Of a stretch of DNA of 27,612 bases, positions 19,521 to 27,123 are shown one piece after another. Position 1 is the first letter of the stretch. Every line of letters starts with the position of its first letter. The notes beneath the pieces are model-generated. The model was not told the DNA's origin. It saw nothing but the letters and a program-made list of their open reading frames with translations, and ran no database searches. Both the position numbers and the translations under genes were made by a program. Location of the stretch: the IMG/VR virus record IMGVR_UViG_3300039346_000011; one strand, written 5' to 3'. Source of the stretch: a virus (taxonomy: Duplodnaviria > Heunggongvirae > Uroviricota > Caudoviricetes).

Positions 19521-20264
19521 ATGCATCGTATAGACACGAAAACCGCGCAGAAGGATAAGTTCGGCGCGGGTAAGAACGGTTTTACCCGTGGTAACCCCCA
19601 GACAGGCACGCCTGCCACCGATCTGGATGATGACTACTTTGACATGTTGCAGGAAGAACTCTGCAGCGTGGTGGAGGCATCCGGTGCCAGTCTGGAGAAG
19701 GCGCGGCACGACCAGCTGCTTACCGCGCTTCGTGCGCTGCTGTTAAGCCGCAAGAATCCGTTTAGCGATATCAAATCGGACGGCACGGTGAAAACGGCTC
19801 TCGAAAACCTTGGTTTGGGAGAAGGCTCTGCATTACCTGTTGGTGTGCCTGTTCCATGGCCTTCAGCCACACCGCCAACAGGCTGGCTGAAATGCAACGG
19901 TGCGGCTTTTTCTGCTGAAGAATACCCGGAACTGGCAAAGGCTTATCCGACAAATAAATTGCCTGATTTACGTGGTGAGTTTATTCGTGGCTGGGATGAT
20001 GGGCGCGGCGTTGATTCAAGGCGTGCGGTGCTGTCAACACAAGAGCCAACTGTAGGTACTTTTTATGTGGAGCTAGCTATCATCTCGGGAACTTTGAGCG
20101 GCTCAGGTGCTAAATTTACCGATTCAGTAGGGATTGGATCAACCAGTAGTAACATTACCGTTAGCAACGGTAATGACCAGTCCGTGTCGGGTACAGTGGC
20201 CGTTAACCCCGTCGATACCCGTCCACGCAACATTGCATTTAACTATATCGTGAGAGCAGCATAA
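19521..20264 (+). CDS. Tail fibre protein with tail-collar-type C-terminus; constant N-terminal part plus currently joined variable C-terminal part
   Basis: 247 aa; [19 protein letters not shown] and C-terminal [15 protein letters not shown] motifs; the left crossover site lies inside at about codon 93. Confidence 0.8.
19798..19823. repeat. Left crossover site of the invertible segment (gix/hix/pix-like)
   Basis: CTCTCGAAAACCTTGGTTTGGGAGAA; its last 14 bp are the exact reverse complement of the first 14 bp of the right site at 21725..21750, with weaker similarity across the remainder; encodes LENLGLGEG in the fibre. Confidence 0.7.
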
Positions 20265-20866
20265 TGGATAAAGCAATATTAAATAGTGGACTTGTTGCTA
20301 CAAAGGCAGGGGATATTACCGTTTATAACTATGATGGTGAAACTCGGGAATATATTTCCACTTCAAGTGAATATCTTGCCGTTGGTGTTGGTATCCCGGC
20401 ATATTCCTGTCTGGATGCACCAGGTATACATAAGGCGGGTTATGCTATCTGTCGTTCTGTGAATTTAAATTCATGGGAATATGTGCCAGACCATCGCGGT
20501 GAAATCGTCTATAACACCGAAACGGGAGAATCAAAACAAATCACAGCACCGGGTGATTACCCCGAAAATACAACCACTATTGCCCCATTAACGCCATACG
20601 ATAAATGGGATGGTGAGAAATGGGTGACCGATACTGAGGCACAGCATAGCGCCGCAGTAGACGCGGCAGAAGCACAGCGTCAGTCACTGATTGATGCTGC
20701 AATGGCTTCCATCGGTCTGATTCAGCTGAAATTACAGGCCGGACGGAAGCTGATGCAGGCAGAAACAACCCGGCTTAACGCTGTGCTGGATTACATTGAC
20801 GCGGTGACGGCAACAAATACCAGCACAGCGCCGGATGTCATCTGGCCTGAACTGCCGGAGGCGTAG
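20264..20866 (+). CDS. Tail fibre assembly protein (Tfa)
   Basis: 200 aa; TAATG overlap with the fibre gene; C-terminal ...DVIWPELPEA typical of Tfa chaperones. Confidence 0.8.
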   Translation: MDKAILNSGLVATKAGDITVYNYDGETREYISTSSEYLAVGVGIPAYSCLDAPGIHKAGYAICRSVNLNSWEYVPDHRGEIVYNTETGESKQITAPGDYPENTTTIAPLTPYDKWDGEKWVTDTEAQHSAAVDAAEAQRQSLIDAAMASIGLIQLKLQAGRKLMQAETTRLNAVLDYIDAVTATNTSTAPDVIWPELPEA

Positions 20867-21281
20867 GCCATTCAATATCTGGCGCACAGGAAGTATCGAC
20901 CAGTTCCAGTGCGTCCAGATAATCCAGCCACGAATTATATTGCGCCAGTTCCTCGCCTTTCAGACGACCAATAGCAGCTTTGCCAGGCCACTGATGGGTA
21001 TTGATGTAGGTATTGACTTCTGAAACCAAAGATATTTTTTTCATTTCAGCCGTCAACACCTCATCCTCTTTTGAAGGGGGTGGGGAATTAATCCATACTG
21101 GCCGTCCTGAACTGTCAGCGCCAATTTCTTTCCCTTCTGGATGCAGACCAAGAAATTGCTCATATGTTTCTCTGGTAATTTCAATAACATCATCAGGAAG
21201 CGTTCCCGCATCCTCATATTCTGGAAACAATTCTTGCAGATAAAAACTTTTACTTCCGGGTGAAAAGAATACTGAGTTCAT
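20838..21281 (-). CDS. Alternative tail fibre assembly protein (Tfa'), inverted orientation
   Basis: 147 aa on the minus strand, convergent and 3'-overlapping with Tfa; C-terminal ...DIEWPTPPAVQAR Tfa-type. Confidence 0.75.
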   Translation of the reverse strand: MNSVFFSPGSKSFYLQELFPEYEDAGTLPDDVIEITRETYEQFLGLHPEGKEIGADSSGRPVWINSPPPSKEDEVLTAEMKKISLVSEVNTYINTHQWPGKAAIGRLKGEELAQYNSWLDYLDALELVDTSCAPDIEWPTPPAVQAR

Positions 21282-21283
21282 TA

Positions 21284-21750
21284 TTACCGTCCAATGATTA
21301 ACGCTGAGACGCTGGTATCTGAAGGAAAGGCTGCATTCAGTGGTTTGTCGACTTTGAACACAATCGTATTATTCCCCCTGACAGCGGCAAAAGAACAAAC
21401 CGCCGTCGCGTATGAACCTGTAATATTACTGGATACACCACCATAAGCTGTTGTTGATACCAGAGGGATAACGCCCAGCACCTTATTAGGAAATACAAAG
21501 GGCAATGTGGCTGTGGCAATATAAGACTTATTAGAACCTGTGATGGCATAAGCATTATCAGTCATTCCATTCATCGCCACTGGGCCGCTTATACTTACAG
21601 TAACCATCTGAATGATTAGCCCGTCAGGTTGACGAATCACAAAATTTCCATTGCCACCAGTAACCGTCCAGAAAGACATATCAGGGATTTGGTTTTCCCC
21701 GTTGCCCACATTCCGTTTTGCCGCTTCTCCCAAACCAACGTTTATGAAAA
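21284..21750 (-). CDS. Alternative tail-fibre C-terminal module, silent in this orientation
   Basis: Minus-strand frame open from the right crossover site to 21284 (track ORF 21284..21778); encodes ...GLGEAAKRNVGNG... at the site, paralleling LGLGEGSA in the expressed fibre. Confidence 0.6.
21725..21750. repeat. Right crossover site of the invertible segment
   Basis: TTCTCCCAAACCAACGTTTATGAAAA; resembles the enteric Hin/Gin/Pin site consensus as I recall it and is the inverted partner of 19798..19823. Confidence 0.7.
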
Positions 21751-21804
21751 TGCAGAAATAACGAGCAAATGGCATCATTCCTGCTTTTGTCAGGGAGATC
21801 TACC

Positions 21805-21933
21805 ATGCTTATTGGCTATGTACGTGTGTCAACAAATGACCAGAACACAGATCTACAACGTAATGCGCTGAACTGTGCAGGATGCGAGCTGATTTTTGAA
21901 GACAAGATAAGCGGTACAAAGTCCGAGACCTAG
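21805..21933 (+). pseudogene. pin: Serine DNA invertase (Pin/Gin/Hin family), 42-codon N-terminal stub
   Basis: MLIGYVRVSTNDQNTDLQRNALNCAGCELIFEDKISGTKSET then TAG; matches the Pin/Hin N-terminus including the catalytic-Ser context (YVRVST), but full invertases are about 185-190 aa. Confidence 0.8.
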
Positions 21934-21984
21934 GGCTGACACTGCTGTTCTTGATGCAAATTAAAGTATTTAATAGTGAGTAGC

Positions 21985-22004
21985 GGCCTTACTAATGTAA
22001 GGCC
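21985..22004. terminator. Stem-loop between the pin stub and the convergent nuclease gene
   Basis: GGCCTTAC-TAAT-GTAAGGCC perfect 8-bp stem in an AT-rich spacer; no clean U-run on either strand. Confidence 0.35.
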
Positions 22005-22028
22005 ACTATAATCATTTTATTAATTGCA

Positions 22029-23918
22029 TTAATCGTGTTTTGGCCATACTTTCAATGCAATTTCCCCCAACTTTTTACCCCGCTCCAGGATTTCATCCTC
22101 ATCCCATTTATCCTTAACTATAAGTGGAATGTTCAGTCGTAGATTGGTGTGGACGATGAGAGCATCACGTTTTTTCAGAAATACAGCATTCTGAACAGAA
22201 CGGTTTACGCTAAGGTTAAGCAAAGTTAGATTTCCCAAAGTAGATATCGCTTGTTGCCGTTTCCTTACCAGTAGCTGTTCAGGGGTAAGATCGGTTCCAG
22301 ACAGAACAATTTGGTTCAATACCGTAGCATCTGAATTTGTCACCATACGACCATTTTCGAGAGGCCAACAGGAATACCAACTTTGAGGCATAAGATGATC
22401 GATATCGAGATTAGAAAGATTTGGAACATCAGGCTTTTCTGTCTTTACTTGGCGACAAAGTTCTCTTTCAAGTTCCGTTAACATTGAGCGCATTTTCGGT
22501 GCGTCGAGCCTGCCAGGATAAAGTGGAGCATTGATGCAAGCGTTGAGAAATTCTGAGTCACCAGGCCAACGTGAGGCTTCGCCATTTAAGTTATTGAGGA
22601 TATTACGTAACTCAACACTGGAAATTTCCGTTTTAGCCAAGTGCCGCAATACATTCATAAATACATTGTTGTAATTCTTTGGCGTCAGGCCACATACGGC
22701 TCTTCGTACTACGTAGGAGACAAGATCATTATACATGGCTGCTTTCTCATCATCAGCGATGTTAGCTATCGAAATGAACAAAGCAAGCGGATAAAGTGTC
22801 GTCACATCATAGTCTGCGATGCGATATCCAAAGTGTGAGATGGGGGTTGTGCCAAAACCATCAACCAATTCTTTATATTGTGATGCATATTGTTTGAGGC
22901 GCTTTACTTGCAGATCTGCTCGTTGTGAAGACAAGTCCTTACTTACATAATCACGATACTCATTGTAAAGGCGAGACAGATCAATTTCACGTTGCCTTTC
23001 TGATTGCAATGTCGCATGTACTAGCCACTCCATGCGTGGTTTATTAATACGTCCACGGCGTTGTTTTTCCGACCAGTATTTATCTTCAAAGCTCTTCCAC
23101 TCATTTTCATATAATTCAATAGCATTAATATTTTCATGCTCAGCGCACATAAAGATATAGTTGCGAATAAGATCCGTAGCATGAAGTTCCGCCCCTCGCC
23201 CATTTAATGTTTCAAAAATTATTTGGGCATCATCTTCAGCTTCGAGAAATATGCTTACCAGTTTCAGATCTGTTAAGACAGCCTCAATTAGAGCTACAGC
23301 ATTTTCTTGTGGTGAGTGGTTTTCTATTTTAATCCATTTTATAAAGGCTTCAGTAAAAAAACATAATGCTTCTAGTGATGGCGGGTGATTAAAATGCTTA
23401 CGCAACGTACCATGCTGCGTGAAACTATCAGAGAATACGTCCCGGAGATCGTCAATATTTTCAACATTAAAACTTTGAATAAAATGAGTTTGATCCCGAA
23501 AAGTTGGCCACAGTTTGAAGCGTTCTACTTCTTTATTTCGCATTGTGTCTTCGTTTGAGTTTTTCAGGCAAGGCGAAATGAGAGCCTCTAAGCTGGAAAG
23601 ATCCGTAGCACGTAATGCTAATCGGATGGATGCCAGAACATATTGAAGAGTGGTCAATCGTTGCTGACCATCAATAATATGTATGGAATCTACACCTAAT
23701 AATCCTTTTTTTGATTGAGGTTCCAGTACAACCGCACCAAGGAAATGGGGAGTTGGTTTTGTACCCGAGAGCCGGGATTGTACTTTCTCTAGGATATCCT
23801 CCAGTAGAGCTGACCACTGGTCTTGCTGAGTCCATACATAGGCACGTTGATAGAATGGAACACAGTATTGTCGGCGGTCTTGAAAAAGTTGTTGGACAGT
23901 TAGCGTCTCGGATTTCAT
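22029..23918 (-). CDS. DUF262/DUF1524 two-domain nuclease (GmrSD/BrxU/SspE-like type IV restriction-type protein)
   Basis: Track ORF 22029..23978; likely start is the ATG at 23918 (MKSETLTVQQLF...). N-terminal FYQRAYVW and IIDGQQRLTT (DGQQR) motifs; C-terminal DIDHLMPQSW His-Me-finger-like motif; low GC. Confidence 0.8.
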   Translation of the reverse strand: MKSETLTVQQLFQDRRQYCVPFYQRAYVWTQQDQWSALLEDILEKVQSRLSGTKPTPHFLGAVVLEPQSKKGLLGVDSIHIIDGQQRLTTLQYVLASIRLALRATDLSSLEALISPCLKNSNEDTMRNKEVERFKLWPTFRDQTHFIQSFNVENIDDLRDVFSDSFTQHGTLRKHFNHPPSLEALCFFTEAFIKWIKIENHSPQENAVALIEAVLTDLKLVSIFLEAEDDAQIIFETLNGRGAELHATDLIRNYIFMCAEHENINAIELYENEWKSFEDKYWSEKQRRGRINKPRMEWLVHATLQSERQREIDLSRLYNEYRDYVSKDLSSQRADLQVKRLKQYASQYKELVDGFGTTPISHFGYRIADYDVTTLYPLALFISIANIADDEKAAMYNDLVSYVVRRAVCGLTPKNYNNVFMNVLRHLAKTEISSVELRNILNNLNGEASRWPGDSEFLNACINAPLYPGRLDAPKMRSMLTELERELCRQVKTEKPDVPNLSNLDIDHLMPQSWYSCWPLENGRMVTNSDATVLNQIVLSGTDLTPEQLLVRKRQQAISTLGNLTLLNLSVNRSVQNAVFLKKRDALIVHTNLRLNIPLIVKDKWDEDEILERGKKLGEIALKVWPKHD

Positions 23919-24303
23919 GGTATACCTGTAAGCGACATTGTACAAAAGTGAGGAGTTAATCTGATTTAGAACAATCATTTTATTTTGCTATGATACAACG
24001 TATTTGTTACCGATTAAGTAAAAAACGCGTCTGAACGCTGACGTTTTAGGGCTTTACTGGTTATTCTTTCTTATCTCTTCATCATCCCATCGGCATCCTG
24101 TCGAGGTTGTTGACTTGTTGTTATTTATTTTGTCTAGGCGCTGTTTAATTATTATTGATAGAATTGATGGTGAGAGGTGATTGAAACCGTAGGCACGTCG
24201 TTTGCAAGGACGTGCTACGACTGGCTGGTGAACTTCCGATAGTGCGAGTATTGAATGATTTCCTACGTGCTAACTAGTGAACAAACAACTCTTCAGTAGA
24301 CTC

Positions 24304-24521
24304 TCAGGTATCATTCAGAGTTTCCTGAACGAAAGTTTTAGCTCAATCTTTATCTGCAGTATGTCTAACTGAAAAACTATCGTTGCTGGTGGCTTTTACG
24401 ATCATCTCCACATCGTCATAACGCTTGCCAATGTGTTGGGTTAATTCTTCCTTTAACGCGTCCACAGCGCCGTTTGGCATTTGGTCATTTTGTCTTTGGC
24501 TATGGAGATCTCAATACGCAT
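24304..24521 (-). pseudogene. dinI-like gene remnant with a frameshift and an in-frame TGA
   Basis: Minus strand from ATG at 24521 encodes [14 protein letters not shown], then after a 1-nt shift [37 protein letters not shown]..., then TGA at 24345..24343, then ...FVQETLNDT; colinear with DinI as I recall it. Confidence 0.5.
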
Positions 24522-24534
24522 AACACTTCTTTTG

Positions 24535-24582
24535 TACTGCGTTTGTAGACAGTATTATTCTTATCTGTGTAAATAAACAGTA
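24535..24582. promoter_or_regulatory. Two tandem LexA (SOS) box candidates upstream of the dinI-like remnant
   Basis: TACTGCGTTTGTAGACAGTA (24535-24554; CTGC-N8-ACAG) and ATCTGTGTAAATAAACAGTA (24563-24582; perfect CTGT-N8-ACAG). Confidence 0.5.
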
Positions 24583-24722
24583 TCAAGACTTCGTTTTAGC
24601 TGCATAAGAAAAAAGAGATGGATACATTCGGAAAGATTTTGATGGTGGTAGGCTAAGTGAATAGCCTAAAGGTGTTTTACCCCAATTATTCCCCGGTATT
24701 TCTCCGCATAAAAAACAATCAT

Positions 24723-24747
24723 AAAAAAACCAGCCATAATAGGCTGG
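24723..24747 (-). terminator. Rho-independent terminator immediately 3' of the partial tRNA
   Basis: Plus strand AAAAAAA-CCAGCC-ATAATA-GGCTGG; on the minus strand this is hairpin plus U7, 15 nt after the tRNA CCA end. Confidence 0.6.
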
Positions 24748-24762
24748 TTCTTAAGGGATTTT

Positions 24763-24815
24763 TGGTCGGCACGAGAGGATTTGAACCTCCGCCCCCCGAC
24801 ACCCCATGATGGCGA
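24763..24815 (-). tRNA. Partial tRNA-Pro-like gene (3' portion only: anticodon arm, T-arm, acceptor 3' strand, CCA); probable att remnant
   Basis: Minus strand ...CCATCATGGGGTGTCGGGGGGCGGAGGTTCAAATCCTCTCGTGCCGACCA; 3' ~45 nt closely match enterobacterial tRNA-Pro(GGG) as I recall it; no 5' acceptor strand or D-arm follows. Confidence 0.55.
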
Positions 24816-24918
24816 GCTACGATCTTAAGGGCTGTTATGTGCCAGAAACAGAGATTTTTATATTCCTCACTCTGGAAATCATAATGCTAACTAGTAGGGA
24901 TTATAAGTTGTCAATTGA

Positions 24919-25743
<825 letters not shown>

Positions 25744-25953: not shown

Positions 25954-26247
25954 ATGACACTACCCAAGTTCAGGAATGACCTACAAGTTGAAGCTAATTA
26001 CTCTATCAATCAAGCCCGTGAAATGGTTGGGAAAACGGTGAAATCTGTCCAGATTGGTTTTCAGAAAACTGGAGTACAGGTTCATCAGACTGAAATGCTA
26101 ATCATCACGTTTACAGATGACACTCAACTTGCCATCTCAACAGGTTCAAACGTTGTAAACATAACGTCGTTAATTGGGCGTGGTGGCAGTTGCGAGCTTA
26201 AGCCTGCGGATTTTCACGTAGATTTTGATTTGACCTGGCAAAGATGA
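25954..26247 (+). CDS. Hypothetical 97-aa protein
   Basis: AGAGGA SD 7 nt upstream of the ATG; no recognisable motif; followed by a GC-rich inverted repeat. Confidence 0.5.
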   Translation: MTLPKFRNDLQVEANYSINQAREMVGKTVKSVQIGFQKTGVQVHQTEMLIITFTDDTQLAISTGSNVVNITSLIGRGGSCELKPADFHVDFDLTWQR

Positions 26248-26334: not shown

Positions 26335-27123
26335 TCAGAACTGCGCAATAACAACCTTCACTTTTCCTTCCGCGTCTTTAGATTCCAGATCGGTTTTCAC
26401 GCCCAAAGGATTATTTATGTAGCAATCCGGGTCATATACAAACAAGATCAACGTATCGCAGTCTTGGTGAGCGCGGTAGCGCGCCATATCAATAAGCAAC
26501 TCTCCACCAACTTTACCCGCTCCCAGAGATTCACGGGTTTTCTTCACCTCTATCACAATTTTCTCTTTTTTCAAAAGAAAGTCCTGTCTTGAGGCCGCGC
26601 CCGCAAAGCTGGGGGTATACTCTTCCGCCCTAATATCATTAAAATGAAGCGTCAGCAGTGCATAAATCAAATCCTGTACGTCATACTCATCATTAACTTC
26701 AAGCGGCGCACGGCCGTTGTACCGCCTCTTTAACTGGCGAACAAAGGTCGGAAACCTGTTAAGAATATTAAGTACGAGGCTCAGCGGCGAACCTTCTTGA
26801 GGAGTATTAGTACTGACAGCAGAGTGCGCAAGATCATCTCTCGCCGCATCAAACAACGGTTTATAACTTTTGATCAGTGTATTGTAATTAGAAGACCACC
26901 TGCTGTTTACAGTATTGAAGTCATTGTAATAATCAGACTCTTTTCCGTAGCTGTCCTCTATTAACTTTTTCACTCTGGCGATCCAGTTTTTATATTTACC
27001 AGAATCAACATAGGTTTCCATAGTGTGAGTGAGAACGTTCTGCGCAGTATATTTTGTGGAAATGAGCGCATCGTAATCTTTCTCAAGCGCCCTAAATCTT
27101 TCTTCCAGTTGTAGATTTGTCAT
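26335..27123 (-). CDS. Hypothetical protein with C-terminal PD-(D/E)xK-like nuclease motif
   Basis: 262 aa; GGAAGG SD; N-terminal helical region; C-terminal ...EYDVQDLIYALL...RQDFLLKKEKIVIEVKK... has E / D / E-x-K spacing reminiscent of the restriction-endonuclease fold. Low GC. Confidence 0.6.
   Translation of the reverse strand: MTNLQLEERFRALEKDYDALISTKYTAQNVLTHTMETYVDSGKYKNWIARVKKLIEDSYGKESDYYNDFNTVNSRWSSNYNTLIKSYKPLFDAARDDLAHSAVSTNTPQEGSPLSLVLNILNRFPTFVRQLKRRYNGRAPLEVNDEYDVQDLIYALLTLHFNDIRAEEYTPSFAGAASRQDFLLKKEKIVIEVKKTRESLGAGKVGGELLIDMARYRAHQDCDTLILFVYDPDCYINNPLGVKTDLESKDAEGKVKVVIAQF

What the first reader, a model, noticed from the sequence alone, without database searches (positions are those of the whole stretch)
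21805..23978. DUF262/DUF1524 (GmrSD-like) nuclease gene occupies the position where the pin invertase gene should continue
The pin ORF stops after 42 codons and, about 100 bp later, a convergent 629-aa gene with DGQQR and DxDH motifs begins, in a lower-GC block. In e14 the type IV restriction gene mcrA sits at the analogous position next to pin. This looks like a defence-gene insertion that removed the 3' part of the invertase.
Basis: partly seen in the sequence, partly recalled or inferred. Interest (0 to 1): 0.6.

Follow-up and report, generated by a model that had tools for sequence, protein, structure and literature searches.

The report
Known GmrSD restriction gene beside truncated invertase
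This is the already-studied E. coli UTI89 GmrSD enzyme, which cuts sugar-modified phage DNA; it sits at the end of a prophage fused to the leftover start of an invertase gene, and the neighbouring tail-fibre switch still flips, so the finding is real but mostly ordinary.

Summary
A 42-codon pin stub (21805-21933, +) is followed 95 nt later by the stop of a convergent 629-aa DUF262/DUF1524 gene (22029-23918, -) in a 38-43% GC block.

The window is 100% identical to E. coli UTI89. The gene is almost certainly UTI89_C2960, EcoUTI89GmrSD. This type IV restriction enzyme has already been cloned and assayed, and its family's catalytic residues (D507, H508, N522) have been mutated. RefSeq already annotates the stub as a partial recombinase. 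Invertase-like and tail-fibre ORFs next to gmrSD were noted in 2007.

What I add:
- The stub/gmrSD junction is a single event. It is present in 301 of the 306 E. coli genomes that carry the gene, in prophages at several attachment sites, including the e14 icd site where mcrA normally sits.
- No copy was found next to an intact pin.
- The stub keeps the right crossover site and the region homologous to the Fis enhancer.
- The 1.9-kb tail-fibre segment occurs in both orientations. APEC O1 is an exact inversion of this window, so another invertase must act in trans.

Whether the fusion arose by insertion or by deletion cannot be decided. Novelty is low.

The parts
19805..19824 (.). Left crossover site (pix-like inverted repeat) inside tail-fibre gene 19521-20264
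   Evidence: 20-nt inverted repeat, 95% complementary to 21724-21743. The same site occurs in e14 and in sister prophages.
19825..21723 (.). Invertible tail-fibre segment: two alternative fibre C-termini (to 20264 on +; 21284-21778 on -) and two tail-fibre assembly genes (20264-20866 on +; 20838-21281 on -)
   Evidence: Pfam Collar, Caudo_TAP x2 and Gp53-like_C. The segment is exactly inverted in APEC O1. The native right junction is in 79 genomes and the in-silico flipped junction in 24.
21724..21743 (.). Right crossover site, and the left boundary of the module shared between gmrSD-carrying prophages
   Evidence: Its centre lies 71 bp before the pin ATG; in Mu the G-segment boundary lies 67 bp before gin.
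21805..21933 (+). pin pseudogene stub, 42 codons. It retains the catalytic-serine motif YVRVST but lacks most of the catalytic domain and the whole DNA-binding domain.
21826..21889 (.). Predicted Fis-dependent recombinational enhancer: two candidate 15-bp Fis sites, GTGTCAACAAATGAC and GTGCAGGATGCGAGC, with centres about 100 and 149 bp from the crossover site
   Evidence: Inferred by homology and position only. The enhancer is 65 bp, has a Fis site at each end, lies about 100 bp from a hix site and sits within the invertase gene (PMC3798978). This stretch is the part best conserved between pin, the ST95 P2-like invertase and Mu gin. The exact placement of the Fis sites rests on my recollection of the hin enhancer sequence.
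21927..21960 (.). Junction zone where pin homology ends. It contains a 1-nt deletion that creates the TAG stop.
   Evidence: e14 pin homology ends at 21926, and some pin alleles match to 21939. TUM17668 lacks the 1-nt deletion and reads on for 61 codons.
21981..22008 (-). Perfect 12-bp hairpin 21 nt after the gmrSD stop codon; likely a terminator or transcript stabiliser between the convergent genes
   Evidence: -26.2 kcal/mol, z = -6.3. It is conserved in all loci aligned. The simple terminator scan did not flag it because the U-tract is weak.
22029..23918 (-). gmrSD, 629 aa: single-chain type IV modification-dependent restriction endonuclease (EcoUTI89GmrSD, RefSeq WP_000834402.1)
   Evidence: 100% identical to UTI89. 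Pfam hits. PADLOC mREase_IV 1415 bits over 1-629 of 629. D507, H508 and N522 are present. Literature. Purifying selection, omega 0.1-0.2.
23919..24129 (-). gmrSD upstream (promoter) region. It is still inside the module shared by all contexts, but is highly diverged between the two allele classes.
   Evidence: No promoter was mapped. The scan found no minus-strand site here and no excess of sites over shuffled sequence.

Best explanation
The gene at 22029-23918 is the known single-chain GmrSD type IV restriction enzyme of E. coli UTI89. Its N-terminal DUF262 (ParB-like NTPase) domain carries DGQQR. Its C-terminal DUF1524 HNH-type nuclease domain carries D507, H508 and N522. According to published work it cuts phage DNA carrying sugar-modified hydroxymethylcytosine and so protects the lysogen from T-even phages.

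It sits in the cargo slot between the tail-fibre inversion switch and the prophage end. That slot holds mcrA in e14 and com/mom in Mu.

One past illegitimate recombination or deletion joined the 3' flank of gmrSD to about codon 41-45 of a pin-type invertase gene. The resulting 2.4-2.5-kb module comprises the right crossover site, the enhancer-containing stub, a hairpin, gmrSD and its upstream region. It has since been exchanged between prophages. The exchange probably used the conserved crossover-site and pin 5' sequence as a homology anchor (inferred).

The stub cannot make a recombinase. It does keep the cis elements, and the 1.9-kb segment has inverted since the truncation. Inversion must therefore be catalysed in trans by a Pin/Gin-family invertase from another element, such as the P2-like prophages found in some ST95 strains.
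For: Identity:
- The window is 100% identical to UTI89.
- It is the only close gmrSD copy in UTI89.
- He et al. 2015 describe UTI89_C2960 as a prophage-borne single-chain GmrSD next to tail-fibre genes, 93% identical to the 629-aa Eco94GmrSD. Catalytic mutants D507A, H508A and N522A were made in Eco94GmrSD.
- Those three residues are present here at the same numbering.
- PADLOC and Pfam hits.

Single event:
- The junction is identical in the five gmrSD-carrying loci aligned; APEC O1 matches the window across it and TW14425 carries the same annotated stub-gmrSD pair.
- The junction query is covered at 80% or more in 301 genomes, against 306 with the gene.
- Among the 60 best of 296 records, gmrSD was never joined to the pin 3' part.

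Module limits.

Inversion after truncation:
- APEC O1 matches the in-silico inverted window over 13,164 nt with 2 mismatches and 2 gaps.
- 24 flipped against 79 native ST95-type genomes.
- The flipped state also occurs with other gmrSD alleles.

Candidate trans enzyme:
- An intact 188-aa invertase, 84% identical to Pin, lies in a P2-like prophage of the gmrSD-carrying strain APEC E18006.
- Its crossover sites match those here at 18/20 and 19/20 positions.
- Among the genomes listed, 7 of 10 flipped genomes against 14 of 46 others have an extra pin-like locus. This is suggestive only and is not corrected for relatedness.

That Gin, Cin, Pin and Hin can substitute for one another is established knowledge.
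Against: - The mapping of old locus tag UTI89_C2960 to this CDS is inferred from length, identity, prophage context and copy number. It was not read from a record.
- The trans-acting invertase is not identified for UTI89 itself. UTI89 has one extra pin-3'-like place that I could not locate, and the E18006 invertase is 100% identical in only 7 genomes.
- Some flipped genomes (PMV-1, GN06489) show no second chromosomal pin-like sequence.
- The stub and enhancer are no better conserved than the adjacent gmrSD 3' part. Stub differences are 2.4-8%, against about 2% in the gene.
- In TUM17668 the right crossover site is degenerate. Retention of the cis elements may therefore be accidental.
- The Fis sites are placed by homology only.
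Confidence: 0.8

Rival explanations
1. One reading: a gmrSD cassette inserted into an intact pin gene and removed its 3' part in the same event.
For: Pin homology stops abruptly at 21926-21939 and a lower-GC block follows. The gmrSD gene also occurs as a unit in an unrelated context with no invertase: in Enterobacteriaceae bacterium B14, homology covers only 22087-23952.
Against: No pin 3' sequence lies on the far side of the cassette, so a simple insertion is excluded and a deletion must be part of the event. I did not search for flanking repeats, target duplications or a mobility gene; no mobility gene is annotated within the module. The event did not happen in this prophage, because the junction is shared by 301 genomes at several attachment sites.
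Confidence: 0.35
2. gmrSD already lay downstream of an intact pin, convergently, as mcrA lies next to pin in e14. A later deletion then removed pin codons from about 45 to the end plus the intergenic DNA.
For: The slot between the invertase or tail fibres and the prophage end regularly carries defence cargo: mcrA in e14, com/mom in Mu, and a retron with a SLATT gene in strain 510016. The stub shows pseudogene decay: a 1-nt deletion absent from TUM17668, and changes in the YVRVST motif in TUM17668 and H22.
Against: Among the loci inspected and the best 60 of the 296 records, none keeps an intact pin next to the gene, and 301 of 306 carry the stub junction. Nothing was found in sequenced phages.
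Confidence: 0.4
3. The two orientations come from homologous replacement of the tail-fibre segment by DNA from pin-positive prophages, not from site-specific inversion of the stub-linked segment.
For: About 200 nt of 95-99% identical sequence (crossover site plus pin 5' end) on the right, and the constant fibre region on the left, could support RecA exchange. The segment contents do differ between lineages.
Against: In ST95 the flipped locus is the exact reverse complement of the UTI89 segment. There are 2 mismatches in 1,939 nt, breakpoints fall inside the 20-nt repeats and the flanks are identical. Imported DNA would be expected to bring in many differences.
Confidence: 0.1
4. The stub is kept by selection because it carries the Fis enhancer and crossover site that the prophage needs to go on switching host range with a borrowed invertase.
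For: The deletion end point leaves the whole predicted 65-bp enhancer with about 40 bp to spare. Flipping continues.
Against: There is no excess conservation of the stub or enhancer over the neighbouring sequence. The right crossover site is degenerate in TUM17668. One deletion end point cannot be tested statistically.
Confidence: 0.3

Closest known systems
EcoUTI89GmrSD (UTI89_C2960), Eco94GmrSD and EcoCT596 GmrS/GmrD
   Same: This is the UTI89 enzyme itself: 629 aa, DUF262 plus DUF1524, with DGQQR and D507/H508/N522. It is prophage-borne, directly after the tail-fibre genes. [quoted passage not shown]
   Different: Nothing differs in the protein. The papers I read do not describe the invertase as a truncated stub with a junction shared by all copies, and they do not mention continued inversion ('invertase' and 'recombinase' each have 0 occurrences in He et al.).
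e14 pin-mcrA arrangement (E. coli K-12)
   Same: Same order: invertible fibre segment, pin, a type IV restriction gene, then the prophage end. Strain H22 carries stub-gmrSD at the icd site itself.
   Different: In e14, pin is intact and mcrA is co-directional with it and unrelated to gmrSD. Here pin is cut at about codon 41-45 and the nuclease gene is convergent.
Mu G segment, gin and com/mom
   Same: Invertible fibre segment, crossover site about 70 bp before the invertase start, an enhancer inside the invertase 5' coding region, and restriction-related cargo just beyond the invertase.
   Different: Mu carries an intact gin and an anti-restriction DNA modification function rather than a restriction enzyme.
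BrxU and SspE (other DUF262/DUF1524 defence nucleases)
   Same: Shared domain pair. Weak PADLOC matches to SspE over the N-terminal domain. The only PDB sequence match is a DUF262 protein, 9jfl, at 3.5e-8.
   Different: Those proteins work within BREX or Ssp (phosphorothioate) systems. This one is a stand-alone gene with no such partners nearby.

Membership tests
GmrSD type IV restriction endonucleases | N-terminal DUF262 (GmrS, ParB-like NTPase) domain with the DGQQR motif | tested here: met
   Pfam GmrSD_N 7.2e-34, residues 28-276. DGQQR at residue 83.
GmrSD type IV restriction endonucleases | C-terminal DUF1524 (GmrD) HNH-type nuclease domain with the catalytic Asp-His...Asn residues | tested here: met
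   Pfam GmrSD_C 3.8e-20, residues 471-639 of the 649-aa ORF. D507, H508 and N522 are at the same numbering as the Eco94GmrSD catalytic mutants.
GmrSD type IV restriction endonucleases | Full-length match to the curated defence model for this enzyme | tested here: met
   PADLOC PDLC03655 mREase_IV, 1415 bits, residues 1-629 of 629.
GmrSD type IV restriction endonucleases | Modification-dependent cleavage and restriction of T-even phages | not testable with these tools
   Published for this enzyme: it restricts T2, T6 and RB69 but not T4, and is insensitive to IPI* (PMC4437046; PMC6024577).
Pin/Gin/Hin/Cin serine DNA invertases (the stub) | Complete catalytic domain plus C-terminal helix-turn-helix, about 185-190 aa | tested here: not met
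   Only residues 1-41 match Pin. There is no further Pin-like coding sequence in the window. It is a pseudogene.
Invertase-controlled tail-fibre switch (G, C and P segments) | Inverted crossover sites flanking alternative fibre C-termini and assembly genes | tested here: met
Invertase-controlled tail-fibre switch (G, C and P segments) | Both orientations occur in nature | tested here: met
Invertase-controlled tail-fibre switch (G, C and P segments) | Fis-bound enhancer in cis, about 100 bp from a crossover site | tested here: inconclusive
   A homologous 64-bp stretch lies at the right distance. Fis binding was not tested and there is no excess conservation.
Invertase-controlled tail-fibre switch (G, C and P segments) | Cognate invertase encoded next to the segment | tested here: not met
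   Only the stub is present. A candidate trans enzyme exists in some ST95 genomes.

The most novel reading that the evidence does not exclude
The prophage has become dependent on its neighbours. A single deletion left a tail-fibre switch that works in cis only (crossover sites plus Fis enhancer in the pin stub), welded to a defence gene. Host-range switching of this SfII/e14-like prophage then runs on invertases supplied by co-resident P2-like or other elements. The welded unit of switch end plus gmrSD spreads between prophages by recombination at the conserved pin 5' and crossover sequence.
Probability: 0.4. Interest if true: 0.35.

Novelty: already known. Interest (0 to 1): 0.2.

Why it matters
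The enzyme matters as a prototype of type IV restriction of sugar-modified phage DNA and of the arms race with T-even inhibitor proteins, but that is established work.

The added points are modest.
- They show that this defence gene travels as a fixed unit with the end of a tail-fibre inversion switch.
- They show that the slot between the invertase and the prophage end is a recurrent defence-cargo site in e14/SfII-like prophages.
- They show that loss of a prophage's own invertase need not freeze its host-range switch.
- The mosaic of gmrSD alleles points to the N-terminal 180 residues as the place to look for the determinant of inhibitor (IPI*) sensitivity or sugar specificity.

Tried and rejected
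- Ancestor with intact pin beside gmrSD: I used a chimeric gmrSD plus pin-3' query and a junction query. None was found.
- Empty site, with intact pin followed by the DinI-like gene and tRNA-Pro: I searched with 23979-24840. The only partial hit inspected, TW14425, again has stub-gmrSD, with an IS2 upstream.
- Sequenced phages: no close homologue. The best tblastn identity is 24-28%.
- One genome per species: three relatives were found. The closest (78% aa, Enterobacteriaceae bacterium B14) has no invertase nearby.
- Selection on the stub or enhancer: rejected as unsupported, because its divergence equals or exceeds that of the adjacent gene part. My first reading, that dS of about 0.2 for the whole gene made the junction very old, was wrong. 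That value comes from a recombinant N-terminal third. The junction-proximal two-thirds differ by only about 2%.
- Trans invertase in UTI89 itself: only a count of 2 places was obtainable. The E18006-type invertase is not 100% identical in UTI89.
- Hin enhancer sequence in the paper library: a literal search for sequence strings gave no relevant paper.
- Simple promoter and terminator scan: no enrichment over shuffled sequence.
- A tRNA-Pro repeat at the prophage's integrase end: absent.
Full report
**Observation**

The window is 100% identical to the chromosome of E. coli UTI89 and other ST95-type strains such as S88 and NU14. Window coordinate equals L001 coordinate plus 1199.

It covers the late region of a prophage with an HK97-type head and a Mu/SfII-type contractile tail. 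That region ends in an invertible tail-fibre segment.

- The ORF at 21805-21933 (+) has 42 codons. Residues 1-41 match e14 Pin. RefSeq calls it a recombinase missing its C-terminus.
- Ninety-five nt further on lies the stop of a convergent gene, 22029-23918 (-), of 629 aa. The ORF could extend to 23978, but 629 aa is the RefSeq start and the length of the expressed homologue.
- The protein has Pfam GmrSD_N (7e-34) and GmrSD_C (4e-20) domains. It carries DGQQR at residue 83 and DIDHLMP at 505-511.
- GC is 0.38-0.43 across the gene, against 0.53-0.59 in the structural genes.
- A perfect 12-bp hairpin (21981-22008, z = -6.3) separates the two genes.

**What the gene is**

He et al. 2015 (PMC4437046) describe UTI89_C2960, also called EcoUTI89GmrSD or the 'UT enzyme'. 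It is a single-chain GmrSD on a prophage next to tail-fibre genes, 93% identical to the 629-aa Eco94GmrSD. The other UTI89 homologue, C5048, lies in the hsd immigration-control region.

The gene in this window is the only close copy in UTI89. It is 629 aa and carries D507, H508 and N522 at the numbering of the published catalytic mutants. PADLOC's mREase_IV model matches it end to end at 1415 bits.

I conclude, by inference from these matches, that this is UTI89_C2960.

According to those papers the enzyme restricts T2, T6 and RB69 but not T4. It is also insensitive to the T4 inhibitor IPI*.

Machnicka et al. [quoted passage not shown]

**The junction**

I aligned the window with e14 pin and with four other gmrSD-carrying loci.

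- Near-identity to pin ends at 21926.
- A weaker resemblance continues for roughly 30 nt.
- A 1-nt deletion creates the TAG stop. TUM17668 lacks that deletion and reads on for 61 codons.
- Some pin alleles match as far as 21939.
- No pin 3' sequence exists anywhere in the window.

**A single event, not a local one**

The gene occurs in 306 of 5,426 complete E. coli genomes at 93-100% nucleotide identity. A 361-nt query spanning stub, spacer and gmrSD 3' end is covered at 80% or more in 301 genomes.

I inspected seven contexts. Each has the stub beside gmrSD; in the six whose sequence I compared the junction is the same, and for TW14425 the evidence is the annotated stub-gmrSD pair alone:

- UTI89 and APEC O1, beside the ssrA island
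- EC_J_9 and TW14425, at tRNA-Pro next to yejM
- D3
- TUM17668, which has a different baseplate set
- H22, at icd, the e14 site

Among the 60 best records, gmrSD was never joined to the 3' part of pin.

The DNA shared between these contexts runs from the right crossover site (21724) to 24129-24262.

In H22, homology to e14 resumes only at the icd fragment. The module therefore replaces pin 3' plus mcrA there.

Whether the founding event was an insertion with deletion, or a deletion next to a gmrSD already in place, cannot be decided. I found neither an ancestor nor an empty site.

A 78%-identical homologue in Enterobacteriaceae bacterium B14 has no invertase beside it. Homology there covers only the gene itself.

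**The switch is not dead**

The inverted repeats at 19805-19824 and 21724-21743 flank 1.9 kb. That segment holds two alternative fibre C-termini and two assembly genes.

- I built the right junction expected after inversion. It occurs at 100% identity over 800 nt in 23 genomes, and 24 genomes cover at least 80% of it. The native junction is in 79 genomes.
- APEC O1 aligns to the in-silico inverted window over 13,164 nt with 2 mismatches and 2 gaps.
- Genomes with other gmrSD alleles and other fibre alleles also show the flipped arrangement.

All of these share the one junction. Inversion has therefore happened after the truncation.

The 42-residue stub cannot be the enzyme. An intact 188-aa invertase, 84% identical to Pin, sits in a P2-like prophage of the gmrSD-carrying strain APEC E18006. 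Its crossover sites differ from those here at 1-2 of 20 positions.

Such invertases are variable cargo. The identical one is in only 7 genomes. UTI89 has one extra pin-3'-like place that I could not locate. Some flipped genomes show none.

That Pin-family invertases can substitute for one another is established knowledge. That they do so here is inference.

**Is the stub kept for a reason?**

The recombinational enhancer of these systems is a 65-bp element with a Fis site at each end. It lies about 100 bp from a crossover site, within the invertase gene (PMC3798978).

By homology and spacing it corresponds to 21826-21889, wholly inside the stub. This is the stretch best conserved between pin, the P2-like invertase and Mu gin.

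However, the stub is no better conserved than the adjacent part of gmrSD. Residues of the YVRVST motif have changed in two lineages. The right crossover site is degenerate in TUM17668. Selection for the enhancer is possible but not shown.

**Evolution of the gene**

Overall omega is 0.1-0.2, which indicates purifying selection. The alleles are mosaic.

| Comparison: UTI89-type against H22/TUM-type | dS |
|---|---|
| Residues 1-180 | 0.67-0.78 |
| Residues 181-629 | 0.05-0.08 |

Thirty of the 41 amino-acid differences between UTI89 and H22 fall in residues 1-169.

**Surroundings**

Past the module lie a DinI-like pseudogene and a 49-nt 3' fragment of tRNA-Pro at 24764-24812. The fragment is a relic prophage end, identical in layout to EC_J_9, where the intact tRNA follows.

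Next come PD-T4-3, a small ORF and a protein with a DpnII/MboI-type nuclease domain. The ssrA gene lies just beyond the window.

The same slot in another prophage holds a retron with a SLATT gene. The region between the tail fibres and the prophage end is thus a recurrent site for defence cargo.

**Verdict**

The feature is real and correctly described. The gene is an already characterised enzyme and the pseudogene is already annotated.

The interpretation needs two corrections. The junction is a shared, older event that cannot be assigned to insertion or deletion. The tail-fibre switch still inverts.

Novelty is low, and interest is modest.

Noticed in passing
window 24764-24812: A 49-nt 3' fragment of a tRNA-Pro gene (anticodon loop to CCA end, minus strand) follows the DinI-like pseudogene. 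In EC_J_9 and TW14425 the same module ends at an intact tRNA-Pro next to yejM. In UTI89 this is therefore a relic prophage end now lying 2.9 kb from ssrA. It is not repeated at the integrase end of the UTI89 prophage.
   Followed up: partly
window 24970-25743 (+), 25954-26247 (+), 26335-27123 (-): A small defence islet lies between the relic prophage end and ssrA. It holds a GIY-YIG protein matching PADLOC PD-T4-3 end to end (453 bits), a 97-aa ORF with no family, and a 262-aa protein with a DpnII/MboI-type nuclease domain (Pfam 9.5e-49) that resembles Argonaute-associated 'Helical-REase' models.
   Followed up: partly
window 23379-23918 (gmrSD residues 1-180) and upstream to about 24129: gmrSD alleles are recombinant. 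The N-terminal 180 residues and the upstream region fall into two deep classes (dS 0.67-0.78), while the remaining 450 residues are nearly identical (dS 0.05-0.08). Most amino-acid differences between UTI89-type and H22/TUM-type enzymes lie in residues 1-169. This is a candidate location for the known difference in IPI* sensitivity or sugar specificity.
   Followed up: partly
L011 7696-9586 (APEC O1); NZ_CP082083.1 (MS20654); L013 4681-5909 (TW14425): The gene is decaying or disrupted in some strains. It is annotated as frameshifted in APEC O1, an IS3 lies inside it in MS20654, and an IS2 lies just upstream in TW14425.
   Followed up: no
L004 7691-7958 and 10688-12522 (TUM17668): In this lineage the stub lacks the 1-nt deletion (61 codons) and the right crossover site is degenerate. 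The module is attached to a different baseplate gene set. A retron Ec67-type reverse transcriptase and a P4-like integrase follow it.
   Followed up: no
window 24304-24521 (-): A DinI-like gene with a frameshift and an internal stop. Intact DinI-like genes sit at the same end of other prophages, for example next to prfC in strain 510016, where the slot between tail fibre and DinI holds a retron with a SLATT gene.
   Followed up: partly
L007 15114-16984 (UTI89, beyond the prophage integrase): Three further genes (hypothetical, STAS-like, hypothetical) lie between the prophage integrase and glaH. The whole ssrA-to-glaH interval in UTI89 is therefore accessory DNA of mixed origin.
   Followed up: no
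L008 6180-8110 (Enterobacteriaceae bacterium B14): The closest gmrSD homologue outside E. coli in the one-genome-per-species collection (78% aa) sits beside an integrase fragment, a Ser/Thr protein kinase and a ClpB-like AAA protein. This context is neither phage tail nor invertase.
   Followed up: partly
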